Assembly: GCA_012295275.1 (NCBI GenBank)
Contig: CM022676.1
Location: 13,392,001-13,456,000 of the forward strand
Length of the DNA stretch: 64,000 bases
Reading direction: 5' to 3'
Source: Chrysomallon squamiferum
Taxonomy: Eukaryota; Animalia; Mollusca
A program made the translations under genes and the position numbers. The number at the start of each line of letters is the position of its first letter. The stretch's first letter is position 1. The notes under the pieces were generated by a model, which was given only the letters and a program-made list of their open reading frames with translations, had not been told where the DNA came from and made no database searches. Below, piece after piece: positions 611 to 55,300 of this stretch.

Positions 611-665
611 CTGTGCTGTATCTAATAATCATAAGAAAAACAAGTAAATATTTCAACAGCCACTA
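611..665 (-). pseudogene. Disabled signal-peptide (leader) exon copy, array A
   Basis: Reverse strand reads TAG-TGG-CTG-TTG-AAA-TAT-TTA-CTT-GTT-TTT-CTT-ATG-ATT-ATT-AGA-TAC-AGC-ACA-G|GTAAG (*WLLKYLLVFLMIIRYST). Same 55-nt layout as intact leaders, but TAG at the ATG position and no promoter motif upstream. Confidence 0.6.
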
Positions 666-3103
666 TTCAGGTTATTTCTGTGGATTAGCAGGAATAAATA
701 TTTTCATATAATTATCTGCAGAGTGAGAACGATGCATATAACTTATTAAGCGAGAATAACGTTTACCACTCTCGTAGCAAATCCGGGGAAAGTTTCCAGA
801 TTCGTAACAATAAAACAATGCTGTTGATAGCGCTGTGGTGTGAAAGCAGAAAGCGGCGTACTGAATCAAGTGTTGAACTGAGGTATCATAGACAACAAGG
901 TAAATTCTTCTCACTGCGCCCACTGTATCAATTCTCGTAGCTGCGAGTGTCTGACTGGTTTATGAAAAGCAATGGAGGAGGGTACAAATATCAAAGATTT
1001 GCTGCTGGTAATTGAACATTAGTACTTCTTTAGATTACTGTTTGAATTTTCTACTAATATTACATTTTGGTCTTAATTATATATTTGATGTCATATGACA
1101 TGAATCATCGAATAAAACGGATTTTTCTTAACAAATAGCAATATCTGTACCACTGAATTTAAAAATGTACTATTCCATACTTATAAGTGTTTCCAATCTT
1201 GTGTCTGATCTGTCTAAGCATCTGGTGTTTTAATGAAATCCCGGATTTTGATACTGTCTTAATGTTCTAACAAATAAATAAATAAATAACTACTACTACT
1301 ACTACTACTACTACTATTACTGTAATAATACATGATTTGAACATTTTGGAATCCTAATTCTTTTAGCATTTATCTTATGTTTTGAAGTAGTTTCTATTAT
1401 ACATACATATTTTTGTTTTGGTTTTACAATCATTTGTTTTAAGCAGATCGCTTCTAGACAAGAATTCCTGGTGTTGATAATATTATTTGGTCTGTAAAGA
1501 GAGTTTATGATATATATATATATATATATATATATATATATATATATATATATATATATATTGGCATCATGCGAACAGATCTTTCAAAAATAAAATTCCT
1601 TTATCTGCCCATATATTATGATAAACATATTTAATGTCAATTTTAACATGAGAATTATACCAAATCAGTAAACAGTATTTTTGTCCTGTCCCATGCAGCT
1701 TCACATTTCTCTAGAAAGTAAGTAATACATTTTTCGAAGGGGGATTGTTGCATATCAGTGATTTGCTTTTCTGTAGGCTGACTAATATTAATGAAGCTGT
1801 TGACTGTAAACAATTATTCAAAAGAGATGCAATGTCTTGGTTCAAATACATACTTTTAATTCTGAATTTGTTTTCCAGCCATATCATCGTTTTTTTTATT
1901 CCAAATCAACAGAAAGAAATAGATTTCTAATTTTTAATCTTTTCGGTTTGGCTGTGAAGAAAGAACATAAACAAATGTCGATAAAACTAAACTTTTGAAC
2001 ACAGTAATTTTTCCTACTGGTGACAGAGATCGTTTGGATGAGTGTTCAAGCAGCCTTTTGACCTCATTCAACTTTGTATTATAGTTTAATTCTTGAATTT
2101 GATACAGATCCCTGAAAAACCGTACCCCAAGTGTTATACTGTTTTGTAGTCCATTTTAGTTTGTGTTTTTAACAAACATAAAGAATTATTTTTTTATTAT
2201 TATTATTATTTTTTTTTTATTAATTAATTAATTTATTTATTTTATTAAATTCCACGCAATTGCATCAACAAGTTTGTTTCTTCAAAATCTACAATTAATA
2301 ACATCGGATGCTTATTTTGTGTGTCTGTATAATGGAATATAATTCAAACTGTGCCCATTCTTGTATCTCTCGTGACTGCTAGTGTCTCGTTTGTTTATCA
2401 AAGACGTGGTATATGGTATGTGTACATTTAAGCGATTAAATCTGCCTCCACCTTTGTTAATAATCATCAAAGTTATTTAGGCGCATCACTTCTCAGCATA
2501 ATCCTAGTTAAGACTGTGTTCTGGAGGCCATCATCACAGAATCCGTGACGGTTTTGAGCAGAGTATTTATTTCTGATACGAAAACAAAAATTAAAAAGCG
2601 AAAAATTTACTGACGAGGTGACTCCAGTTTCGCAACTATTCTTGTGATTATTTATTTATTCGGTACTATTTAACTTTTTATTTGAATTTTCTAGTAATCT
2701 GGGAATGCCTTGAAAATAATGTTGGAACTGATAGTGAAAGAAGTGTGTTTAATTAGTTTAGTCGGAAAAAATAAACTTACATTTGAAATATGGTTCAAAT
2801 ACTATATATCATTCAGTACATATTTCCTTATTCAGTCTTTTTTTCTCTTAGTTCTAAAATTTGCTTCATAAAGTCCACTCCCACATTCAAACAAGTTCTC
2901 AGAGACATCTTCTCAAACATCAGTGAAATTCATCATTTACATTCACATCAACAGACTGAATAAAAGTCCTAAGACTTCAGTACATGGATCTTACTTTCTG
3001 TAATAGTTAACATGTATCAATGAAAGATATTAAAAAAATACTAACAATTTTAAAAATAATAATACAAAGAAAGAAAGAAAGAAAGAAAGAAAGAAAGAAT
3101 TAA

Positions 3104-3252
3104 CTAGATATTATCTAACAGTCAAAACAGGTACAAGTAAATATCTCAACAGCGCCATTGTGAATGTTCTGGCTAAACTTGTTTCTTCCGGGTACACGAG
3201 TTGTACTTTATCTAGTTTATCTTATTGTGCCACATTATTACTACAGCGCTCT
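3104..3252 (-). pseudogene. Promoter+leader cassette, disabled (in-frame TAA, phase-1 donor lost)
   Basis: Full upstream motif including CCCGGAAGAAACAAG. ATG at 3158 gives MALLRYLLVPVLTVR*, ending CTAGTTA instead of CTAG|GTAAG. Confidence 0.75.
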
Positions 3253-52229: not shown

Positions 52230-52323
52230 ACAGCGCTGTAGTAATAACGTGACACAGTAAGATGACCTAGATAAAGTACAACTGGTGCACCCGGAAGAAA
52301 CAAGTTTAGTCACAACATTCACA
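52230..52323 (+). promoter_or_regulatory. Cassette promoter of gene D
   Basis: ACAGCGCTGTAGTAATAACGTGACACAGTAAGATGACCTAGATAAAGTACAACTGGTGCACCCGGAAGAAACAAGTTTAGTCACAACATTCACA; contains AGATAA (GATA) and CCGGAAG (ETS) matches. Confidence 0.7.
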
Positions 52324-55300
52324 ATGGCGCTGTTTCGATATTTACTTGTTTCTGTCTTCATTGTTAGTTACTGTCTAGGTAAGCTTTTATTTTTAGTTCT
52401 TAGTTGATAAATTAAATCAAATATTTTGGATATTATCGATAATAAGATCCATGTATTGAAAAAGTATTTATTTAAGCTGTGTCCTGATTAGCGGTGGTTT
52501 AGTGTTAAAACGTACATAAAGATTTATCACTGTATATTATTTAAACTGCACAGTTTGTATATCACAAGTGAACGAATTCTGTGCTGAAAATAGAATTTTA
52601 ATTAAACATTTCCAAGTGTGTTAAAAATAAAAATTATATTCCATTGTGAGATTAATTACACAGAACGGTTTTATATTTGTTCGTTTCGTTTACTTTTTAA
52701 TCAAAAATACTCATAAGACATTTAATGATTTTTATTTATTTATTGATTTATTCGAAAATTAAGACAGTATCTAAAGCCAGCTTTTTATTTTTGAAAACAA
52801 CACTAGTTGTTTAGACAACAGACACGTATGAAACAAGACAGTAAACACGTTATACAGTATCGTGTTCGAGTATTGTTATTTGTAAAGAAAGAAATCATTT
52901 ACTCGATGTTTTATGATTCATGCTACATGATTCACGAAAATACGACATCAAACATATTGTAAAGATGAAAACACATAAAAATCCAATAAAACAGCTACAG
53001 TAATGTGAAAAACTTGTGAGTTTCAATTATCAGCAACAGATATTTCATATTTATACACATTCTGAACTTTACAAACAGTAAAACAAGGCAGTTAGAAAAT
53101 AGGTCAGAATCCAGAAAATGTCATTTGTCTCCCATTTGTTACACAGTCAGCTTAATGGAATAGTTACCAGCTGAACATATTTATATATAACACTGTGATG
53201 TAACACGTGATACTGCATACATATACAGAATGTGATTCTTAGTTCATATTATTCCTGAAATGTGACTGAATTCATAACAAATGGATGTGGATACATATTT
53301 GTGTTCTTGTTTCTGAATTGTTCCCTAAGCTGACTCTGTAACAACTAGGAAGATGAGTCCATTATTGTATAACACATGTTGTTAAAAGATGTGTGACAAA
53401 CGAGTCGAGTAACAAATTGAATGATACCCTACAAACATATCATTCCAGCTAACTGTGTTTTCCTCACTATGAAAAGTATTTTAGTAATGTATTAGCTTTA
53501 AAATAGTTTTGTTCTTAATTTAATTTTTTATTATTATTATTATTATTATTATTATTATTATTATTATTATTATTATTATTATTATTTATTTGTATTTTTA
53601 TTTGTATTTTTATTTGTATTTTTTTTTAAATACAAAAGACATTTATATTGCTATTGTGGTAGAGGATTATTCCGGTGTCATTTATTATTAATGTTTTTTT
53701 TTTTGTTTATATATCTATTTTCATTACTTNNNNNNNNNNNNNNNNNNNNNNNNNNNNNNNNNNNNNNNNNNNNNNNNNNNNNNNNNNNNNNNNNNNNNNN
53801 NNNNNNNNNNNNNNNNNNNNNNNNNNNNNNNNNNNNNNNNNNNNNNNNNNNNNNNNNNNNNNNNNNNNNNNNNNNNNNNNNNNNNNNNNNNNNNNNNNNN
53901 NNNNNNNNNNNNNNNNNNNNNNNNNNNNNTACTGAGGAAGAAACAGCAACAATTGATCTCCACATCGCCGCATAAAGTAATCGGACAGGGTAGAGAAGGA
54001 TATTTCACTGGAAACATGATCTCTGTCACATTGAAACAAACTGAGAGAAGTGAAATAAAACATTGCCACATCTGTCTTCTTGATTTGTTTTTCATACTTT
54101 TACATCTTTTTTTGATGTTATAACCTCTATCGATGCATTTCAAATGCACTGAGAAACATTTATTTCAATATGAAAAACCACACCCATTTGTACCCATTTC
54201 TTTCCATTAAGTTGCACTATTCTAAGTTGAAAATTATACAGTGTAAATTGAATATAAATCATGAAAAAAGTCACCAAGAAATGATACTCAGGTAGACATG
54301 CATTAAGCCAGTACAGATATTTATAGTCCAAGAGCTGACTCATCTAAAAATATGTTGTATCACCCCAAATATTCAGAAGGTTTGATAGTAGATTTAATTT
54401 GGACATCATCCCAGGAATGTTTTAGGACTGGTAGTACTGTCAAATTGTGATATCACAAAACTGAAGGGAGTAAAGGGTTGTGAAATATATATTTTACACT
54501 ATACTCATAGTTGGTGGAGAAATACACAATGAATAATCAAATTCTTCCATATGCGATATACTTTTGTTTAAGTTTTTAGTATGTTTTTTCATGGTCTCTT
54601 GCTTAATTGTCTAATAATTGCTATGAGTATATTGTAAAATAGATGTTTTTGTACCCCTTGTCCCTTCTAGCAAATTAGTGATATCATAACATAAAAGTAC
54701 CATTGGTCCTAAAATCTTCCTTGGATGATGCACAAACTAAATCTACCATCAGACCTGATGAATACTCGGGGTGATGCAAAATCAAGTTTGGTCTGCCATA
54801 CTGTTTTGAATTTTTCACTTACTTTTGAATGCTTTATTTTATTCTCAGTTTGAGGTCCTGTCTGAATAAAAATTGCATGAATTGTTTTTATTGCACAAGT
54901 GTTATCTTGTATTTGTGAAAAAAGGGTTTAATCTCAATGGAAAGGCCTTGGTTAGCAACAGTCTCATTTGTTTTTATCAAACATGTAAACATGTTTCACA
55001 AATATCATTCATATACTACTTTTTACACTGGTCATTTAAGCTCTATGAGCTTTCTTCGTATAACAGTCTTGACTAAACAGATGTTCAGTATCTTAGCTTC
55101 ATTTGTTTGTCCAGTGTAAAAAACTGTTTGCCATACAAATGCAATGAAGTCTCTTGACTATTTTCAGATAGCAGACCCCTTTCAAAAATTATCACTGGAA
55201 TGAGAAATATTTTGTCTTCTAAAGAACAGTAGAATTGAAGCAGAAAGCAACATCTGCTTAAAGGTTTTTGTATTTGAACAATATGACCATTCTTTTCATA

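What the first reader, a model, noticed from the sequence alone, without database searches (positions are those of the whole stretch)
611..52378. Arrays of about 17 promoter+signal-peptide cassettes stacked in front of each IgSF gene
Seen: a unit of about 150 bp (ACAGCGCTGTAGTAATAACGTGACACAGTAAG..ACCTAGATA.AGTACAACTCGTGTACCCGGAAGAAACAAGTTTAGTCACAACATTCACA-ATG + 55-nt hydrophobic exon + GT) recurs in four arrays, oriented with the gene body wherever a body is visible. Array A(-): 665, 3158, 3446, 3850, 4920. B: 25631, 26600, 27573. C: 35187, 35816, 36674, 37329, 39767. D: 48875, 49766, 49960, 52324. Six have an intact ATG-18 codons-G|GT with different peptide sequences; the rest lost ATG, frame or donor, often keeping the promoter. 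All leaders are phase 1, as are the first Ig exons, so any intact leader is splice-compatible. Established: clustered protocadherins and chelicerate sDscams use tandem promoter/first-exon choice. Inference: this may be a promoter-choice or dosage system for a diversified receptor family in which only promoter and leader are arrayed. I do not recall such an arrangement being described, but cannot check.
Basis: partly seen in the sequence, partly recalled or inferred. Interest (0 to 1): 0.85.

Follow-up and report, generated by a model that had tools for sequence, protein, structure and literature searches.

The report
Stacked start exons of snail receptors
In DNA likely from a snail, immunoglobulin-type receptor genes are each preceded by a stack of copied signal-peptide exons with their likely promoters; most copies are broken, but some are spliced in RNA and likely act as alternative on-switches for the same protein that can be swapped between genes.

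Summary
The arrays are real. There are 16 copies of a ~150-bp unit (93 nt upstream plus a 55-nt leader exon), and 5 are intact. The 17th site, 35187, is an older leader without the upstream part. Homologues point to a gastropod. Gene C is an intact 934-aa receptor (7 Ig, FnIII, TM, ITAM-spaced tail).

Corrections. Array D probably heads a C-type gene hidden in the N gap, not the exon at 57453. A second conserved leader family (38761, 51291) was missed. Only 3 of 11 broken copies keep a well-conserved upstream part. Five intact of 16 is what neutral decay predicts (4.2).

RNA contigs from one study show a B1-type leader spliced to a C-type first Ig exon, and a C2-type leader whose match ends exactly at its donor. 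The best-covered upstream exon is not a cassette and is not in the window. No single gene was shown to use two leaders.

Best reading: birth-and-death duplication of 5' ends, leaving a few IgLON-like alternative promoters and letting divergent receptors swap 5' ends. It cannot diversify the ectodomain as protocadherins or sDscams do. Signal-peptide-only alternative first exons are already described in IgLONs.

The parts
611..665 (-). A1: T1 leader remnant; ATG and upstream part replaced by another repeat; donor kept
   Evidence: 13.9 bits
3104..3251 (-). A2: T1 unit, upstream part well kept (8/93 from consensus), in-frame stop and donor lost
3415..3508 (-). A3: eroded T1 unit, ATG lost
3818..3887 (-). 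A4: upstream part of T1 only, eroded
4866..5009 (-). A5: intact T1 cassette (leader 4920-4866); gene body not in window
25539..25685 (+). B1: intact T1 cassette; a near-identical leader is spliced to a C-type Ig exon in RNA
26546..26667 (+). B2: heavily deleted T1 remnant
   Evidence: 10.1 bits
27480..27627 (+). B3: eroded T1 unit, ATG lost, in-frame stop
28348..34081 (+). Gene B body: two Ig exons (28348-28656, 29660-29959) and a TM exon (from 33984) with a stop four residues after the TM; downstream tail exons look decayed
35187..35241 (+). C1: intact, old relative of the T1 leader with unrelated upstream DNA
35724..35870 (+). C2: intact T1 cassette; an RNA contig matches 35809-35870 and the match stops at the donor
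36588..36728 (+). C3: intact leader, eroded upstream part (21/87 from consensus); no RNA cover seen
37236..37383 (+). C4: T1 unit with donor lost; 5' side 92% like C5 over 181 bp (likely conversion)
38640..38839 (+). T2-C: second family; conserved upstream part plus intact 26-codon phase-1 leader (38761-38839)
39675..39811 (+). C5: T1 unit whose leader 3' end and donor are deleted
40563..48703 (+). Gene C body: 14 exons, open frame; with leader 934 aa: 7 Ig-type domains, FnIII, TM, tail with YxxL-x7-YxxL
   Evidence: most junctions seen in RNA contigs
48779..48929 (+). D1: eroded T1 unit, donor lost; starts about 75 bp after the stop codon of gene C
49686..49798 (+). D2: eroded T1 unit, ATG lost
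49923..50012 (+). D3: upstream part of T1 only
51143..51342 (+). T2-D: second-family cassette; first ATG lost, inner ATG (51291) gives a 17-codon phase-1 exon
52232..52378 (+). D4: intact T1 cassette
53730..53929 (.). Assembly gap, likely hiding a C-type gene body served by array D
   Evidence: RNA joint 48322->40561
57453..64000 (+). A further Ig/FnIII gene, cut by the window end; no leader found between the gap and its first Ig exon

Best explanation
These are stacks of duplicated signal-peptide first exons with their likely promoters in a tandem cluster of likely gastropod Ig-superfamily receptor genes, most copies dead and a few likely working as alternative promoters for one mature protein. 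Shown: the copies, their states, the colinear arrays, the intact receptor C, and splicing of T1-type leaders. Inferred: a 5' end was duplicated locally, the stack was copied with later gene duplications, and each daughter lost different copies (C kept C2 and lost C5; D kept D4 and lost D1), so the ancestor had at least two working T1 cassettes besides T2. Also inferred: the conserved unit and its spacers serve as substrates for unequal crossing-over and conversion, which moves promoter-leader modules between bodies with 23% protein identity, as in chicken BG hybrid genes. The predicted effect is a change in where, when or how strongly a receptor is made, not in what it binds.
For: Colinear arrays sharing spacers (21% substitutions, 579/2760) in front of B and C bodies whose first Ig exons are 23% identical. 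Upstream 93 nt are 85-94% identical among six copies, while the five intact leaders are 67-76% identical. The upstream part is more conserved than the flank in 2 of 7 pairs (C5/D4 6/93 vs 219/1174, p=0.002; C2/B1 12/93 vs 158/621, p=0.009). Four leader-like phase-1 exons lie in array C against a null mean of 0.14, maximum 2 in 300 simulations. T2 differs between C and D at 4/82 sites, all at third codon positions. C4 is 92% like C5 on its 5' side but like A2 downstream. RNA: a B1-type leader (31/32 match, next best place 21/32) joined to a C-type exon in X2; a C2-type match ending at the donor in X3; a third T1-type leader, not in the window, continuing in frame into a different sequence in X2.
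Against: Five intact of 16 equals the neutral expectation (4.2; 3.2-6.7 over three settings). Arrays A, B and D each have one intact T1. Leader pN/pS is 0.76 for intact and 0.96 for broken copies, a small difference. In 5 of 7 pairs the upstream part is not significantly more conserved than the flank. The best-covered exon upstream of the C-type Ig exon (X1, X2, X3) is not a cassette and has no match in the window (best 21/30). No spliced contig was listed for C1, C3, T2 or D4. The spliced T1 contigs are single and shallow (depth 2.5-4), come from one study, and carry differently diverged copies of the Ig exon, so they may come from different paralogues or haplotypes. 30 of 37 listed RNA variants over array C match array D, so most cassette cover is likely read-through.
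Confidence: 0.55

Rival explanations
1. One working first exon per gene; everything else is neutrally decaying duplication debris, partly homogenised by conversion.
For: Intact count fits neutral decay. One intact T1 each in A, B and D. Seven of 11 broken copies are eroded and one has lost its upstream part. Unspliced RNA over the cassettes matches array D read-through. No contig pair proves two leaders on one gene.
Against: T2 is constrained in C and D beside intact T1 leaders (T2 was picked after a sliding scan). C1 is intact despite deep divergence. C and D kept different T1 copies.
Confidence: 0.27
2. A regulated promoter-choice or dosage system of the protocadherin/sDscam kind, with cell-by-cell exclusive use of cassettes.
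For: Tandem cassettes with a conserved upstream motif block, all splice-compatible where intact.
Against: Cassettes hold no mature-protein sequence, so choice gives no binding diversity; in sDscam the cassettes encode Ig domains (PMC4835542, passages). 11 of 16 T1 copies are broken and no excess is preserved.
Confidence: 0.07
3. One promoter feeds several bodies: B1 splices either to gene B or, skipping it, 15 kb further to gene C, and gene C reads through array D into the next body.
For: B1-type leader joined to a C-type exon. Penultimate-exon to first-Ig-exon joint in all 4 runs. Gene B has a stop just after its TM.
Against: A hybrid haplotype or paralogue made by crossing-over between the homologous B1 and C2 blocks explains the same contig. 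The RNA is 4-13% different from the window in this exon. The other joint may be a circular RNA.
Confidence: 0.08
4. The unit is a dispersed transposon (SINE or MITE) that happens to resemble a leader.
For: Short, repeated, variably truncated; a genome-wide search could not be run.
Against: No terminal inverted repeat over 7 nt in the 3 copies tested. No Rfam match in 34900-40600. All 16 copies lie in the four arrays, co-oriented within each, none in gene bodies. Members are spliced at the predicted donor. A Gigantopelta Ig protein model starts with a similar peptide (5.6/17 identities vs 2.1 for shuffles, p=0.002; picked by eye from 13 hits).
Confidence: 0.03

Closest known systems
IgLON twin promoters (Lsamp, Opcml, Ntm; exons 1a/1b) - PMC5288359, passages read
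   Same: IgSF genes whose alternative first exons encode only the signal peptide, each with its own promoter; the mature protein is unchanged.
   Different: IgLONs have two old, stable, dissimilar promoters, three Ig domains and a GPI anchor. Here there are 3-6 stacked cassettes per gene, mostly dead, from three sequence types, shared across paralogues; use of two by one gene is not shown.
Chicken BG gene cluster with hybrid genes - PMC4046983, passages read
   Same: Tandem co-oriented Ig-type genes in which 5' ends and bodies have separate histories through unequal crossing-over or deletion; two kinds of promoter.
   Different: The passages read describe one promoter per BG gene, not stacks; BG promoter classes are tied to measured tissue expression, which is unknown here; BG genes are butyrophilin-like.
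Chelicerate sDscam and clustered protocadherins; UGT1 variable first exons - PMC4835542 and PMC1885805, passages read
   Same: Tandem promoter-plus-first-exon cassettes made by 5' segmental duplication, with conserved upstream motifs and birth-and-death turnover including pseudo-exons (UGT1).
   Different: Their cassettes encode ligand- or substrate-binding domains and so diversify the protein; these encode only a predicted cleaved leader.
Hydractinia Alr family - PMC9546547, passages read
   Same: Invertebrate cluster of divergent Ig + FnIII + TM genes with ITAM-type tails, pseudogenes and partial duplicates.
   Different: No homology tested here; the passages read mention no leader-only arrays; Alr proteins have fewer Ig domains (recalled).

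Membership tests
Protocadherin/sDscam-type variable-first-exon cluster | Tandem first exons, each with its own promoter | tested here: inconclusive
   Tandem units with a conserved upstream block; promoter activity not measured
Protocadherin/sDscam-type variable-first-exon cluster | Variable exon encodes part of the mature ectodomain | tested here: not met
   Cassette exons are 55 nt (T1, C1) or 52-79 nt (T2), hydrophobic leaders only
Protocadherin/sDscam-type variable-first-exon cluster | Several cassettes spliced to the same constant exons | tested here: inconclusive
   Different upstream exons on C-type Ig exons, but on differently diverged exon copies
Protocadherin/sDscam-type variable-first-exon cluster | Stochastic or exclusive choice per cell | not testable with these tools
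   Needs single-cell 5' data
IgLON-type signal-peptide-only alternative promoters (works like) | Alternative first exons encode only a signal peptide, splice-compatible with one Ig exon | tested here: met
   C1, C2, C3 and T2-C are ATG-started, hydrophobic, phase 1; signal peptides judged by hydrophobicity and the recalled -3/-1 rule, SignalP not available
IgLON-type signal-peptide-only alternative promoters (works like) | Two promoters used by the same gene | tested here: inconclusive
   B1-type join shown, C2-type partner not shown
IgLON family (membership) | Three Ig domains and a GPI anchor | tested here: not met
   Gene C: 7 Ig-type domains, FnIII, TM, cytoplasmic tail
BG-type hybrid-gene cluster (works like) | 5' ends and bodies have different histories | tested here: met
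   B and C share spacers (158/621 differences) but have first Ig exons 23% identical; C4 is mosaic
BG-type hybrid-gene cluster (works like) | Promoter class sets tissue expression | not testable with these tools
   Only contigs of one study, tissues unknown
SINE/MITE transposon | Terminal inverted repeats or RNA-derived head | tested here: not met
   Longest TIR-like match 6-7 nt in 3 copies; 0 Rfam hits; target-site duplications not examined
SINE/MITE transposon | Dispersed genome-wide | not testable with these tools
   No genome held; within the window confined to four arrays

The most novel reading that the evidence does not exclude
A snail immune-type receptor cluster runs on a shared library of interchangeable promoter-leader modules: one receptor body can start from three or more promoter types, one promoter (B1) can feed two unrelated bodies by long-range splicing, and crossing-over at the modules rewires which receptor is expressed where from one haplotype to the next. 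This would be combinatorial control of expression without any change to the binding domains.
Probability: 0.15. Interest if true: 0.75.

Novelty: new variant of a known kind. Interest (0 to 1): 0.42.

Why it matters
It is a compact, readable case of how alternative promoters are born, swapped and lost in a fast-evolving invertebrate receptor family with an ITAM-spaced tail. If several cassettes are used per gene, it would show that a mollusc can retune expression of divergent receptors by trading 5' modules. One 5'-end sequencing experiment would test this. It does not provide a new source of receptor binding diversity.

Tried and rejected
Genome-wide BLAST of the unit: impossible, no genome held. 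Metagenome scans for the unit (0 loci) and for an Ig exon (442 candidates, 0 confirmed): no outside loci. Word-index protein searches with two gene C exons found no scoring relative, so no annotated model gave the real leader. Gigantopelta isoforms X1-X4 of one homologue share one leader: no comparative support for leader choice there. The tree of 15 units is star-like with weak support and did not order the duplications. An ETS-like core (consensus recalled) is perfect in only 4 of 16 copies and absent from intact B1, A5 and C3: it does not track intactness. An initiator-like site 15 nt before the ATG was considered, but one spliced contig begins 31 nt before the ATG, and contigs cannot show starts. 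A possible kinship of the non-cassette upstream exon to T2 (16 of the last 20 nt, different frame) is too weak to keep. ESM Atlas gave only unnamed mollusc clusters at 0.90-0.91 with low recognition. Literature searches listed no paper on leader-only arrays in molluscs; the library lacks most subscription journals and no supplements were read.
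Full report
Observation. BLASTN with the 52201-52420 copy and two nhmmer profiles recover 16 copies of the unit (here T1) in four arrays. 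In one search, 14 score 41-162 bits, and A1 and B2 score 13.9 and 10.1, against a best of 7.6 in 20 simulated windows; the profile was built from 7 of the copies. The 17th listed site, C1 at 35187, is not hit. Its leader is a distant relative (mean 27.6/55 nt, p=0.002 against codon shuffles) with unrelated upstream DNA. A leader scan also found a second family, T2: a 26-codon phase-1 leader at 38761, a copy in array D that lost the first ATG but keeps an inner one at 51291, and three fragments.

The genes. The exons are Ig and FnIII domains. Of ten relatives of the 57453 exon looked up, eight are from Gigantopelta, Lottia, Haliotis or Patella, one is a spider hemicentin and one is unnamed, so the host is likely a gastropod. 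Gene C (40563-48703) joins into an open 934-aa frame with a leader, seven Ig-type domains, FnIII, a TM segment and a tail with YxxL-x7-YxxL, which fits the ITAM consensus quoted in PMC9546547 (passages). Most junctions, including a GC donor, appear in RNA contigs. Gene B has two Ig exons and a TM exon with a stop four residues later. The first Ig exons of B, C and the 57453 gene are 23-25% identical. Array A has no body in the window. Array D begins about 75 bp after the stop of gene C, and its last 90 bp before the N gap match the intron end in front of gene C's first Ig exon, not the one in front of 57453. D4 therefore most likely serves a C-type duplicate hidden in the gap. No leader was found between the gap and 57453.

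How the arrays are built. They are colinear mosaics: class I (B1, C2, D1, A4), a 700-bp spacer, class II (B2, C3, D2, A3), class III (C4, D3, A2, perhaps B3), a repeat, T2, then class IV (C5, D4). Shared flanks differ at 579/2760 sites (21%). So the stack predates the split of the arrays, and it is shared by B and C although their bodies are only 23% identical, which implies transfer of 5' regions between old paralogues (inference). C kept class I and lost class IV; D did the reverse. Since regaining an ATG or donor is unlikely, the ancestor had both working (inference). C4 is 92% like C5 over 181 bp on its 5' side but continues like A2, a sign of conversion or crossing-over.

Selection. The upstream 93 nt are 85-94% identical among A2, B1, C2, C4, C5 and D4, whereas the five intact leaders are 67-76% identical. 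The upstream part is significantly more conserved than the flank in 2 of 7 pairs. Of 11 broken copies, 3 keep it within 4-9% of consensus, 7 are 19-37% away and A1 has lost it; intact C3 is 24% away. A simulation of neutral decay at flank divergence gives P(intact)=0.26, or 4.2 of 16 expected against 5 seen (3.2-6.7 over three settings). pN/pS is 0.76 over 10 intact pairs and 0.96 over 6 broken pairs. So T1 copy number is not visibly maintained. In contrast T2 differs at 4 of 82 sites between C and D, all third positions (p about 1e-4 against flank; 0.012 for position; region chosen after a sliding scan). Array C holds four leader-like exons where 0.14 are expected.

RNA. For: in X2 a 175-nt contig joins a leader matching B1 at 31 of 32 sites (next best place 21 of 32) to a C-type Ig exon; in X3 a 91-nt contig matches C2 from 35809 and the match stops at the donor, 35870, with 29 nt not shown; in X2 another T1-type leader, not in the window, continues in frame into a different sequence whose first residues resemble the start of Gigantopelta Ig domains. 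Against: the best-covered upstream exon of the C-type Ig exon (X1, X2, X3; depth 39 and 22 where listed, against 2.5-4 for the T1 contigs, a poor measure by the tool's own warning) is in frame but is no cassette and has no match in the window. The three kinds of join carry Ig exons with different numbers of differences (4/94, 6/92, 16/130), so they may be different paralogues or alleles. 30 of 37 listed variants over array C match array D, so unspliced cover likely reflects read-through from gene C. All four runs join the penultimate exon (donor 48324) to a C-type first Ig exon; in X3 that exon has a 7-nt deletion. This fits read-through to a damaged duplicate in the gap, but a circular RNA is not excluded.

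Mechanism. Best reading (0.55): local duplication of a promoter-leader 5' end, copying of the stack with the gene, exchange of modules by unequal crossing-over, and loss of most copies, leaving a few alternative promoters per gene that would give one mature protein. Rivals: one working leader per gene (0.27), long-range sharing of a promoter between bodies (0.08), protocadherin-like choice or dosage (0.07), transposon (0.03; no TIR in 3 copies; no Rfam hit; genome-wide test impossible).

Known systems. IgLON genes already have alternative promoters whose first exons encode only signal peptides, with identical mature N-termini (PMC5288359, passages). Chicken BG genes show hybrid genes with swapped 5' ends (PMC4046983, passages). 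sDscam, protocadherin and UGT1 cassettes encode binding domains (PMC4835542, PMC1885805, passages), a defining feature not met here. Eight searches (listings only) showed no paper on stacked leader-only cassettes in molluscs; subscription papers and supplements were not seen. Earlier AI notes led me to the IgLON and BG papers; they are not counted as support. Verdict: a new variant of a known kind, interest 0.42.

Noticed in passing
window 5758-13121 vs 13547-22557: Large inverted duplicate (89-93% identical) centred on the N gap 13325-13524, holding partial B-like Ig exons without leader or first Ig exon; may be two haplotypes assembled head to head.
   Followed up: partly
window 7684-8346 (+) and 19243-19914 (-): A 220-codon open frame with a TM-like stretch and a long acidic tail in each arm of the inverted duplicate; no Pfam hit; unlike the tail exons of B and C.
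   Followed up: no
window 48226-48703: Gene C tail has YxxL-x7-YxxL spacing plus two further tyrosine motifs; likely an activating receptor.
   Followed up: partly
window 48324 -> 40563: Penultimate exon joined to a C-type first Ig exon in all 4 RNA runs; in frame by phase; read-through to a duplicate or circular RNA.
   Followed up: partly
window 40563-40880: First domain of gene C lacks the two usual Ig cysteine positions and has no Pfam hit; RNA shows up to 11 variant contigs in one run, so it is highly variable.
   Followed up: partly
upstream of window 40562 (RNA only): A 173-226 nt in-frame upstream exon, not in the window, is the best-covered partner of the C-type Ig exon in 3 of 4 runs.
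   Followed up: partly
window 43963: GC-AG intron in gene C, supported by RNA contigs in 4 runs.
   Followed up: yes
window 43403 -> 45230: RNA joint skipping two Ig exons of gene C (X1, X3): exon skipping or a shorter paralogue.
   Followed up: no
window 55342-56161: Inverted, cassette-free copy of the repeat block that follows class III units, in front of the 57453 exon.
   Followed up: no
window 23500-24400: Frame fragments that look like a decayed pogo/Tigger-type transposase (recalled likeness, not searched).
   Followed up: no
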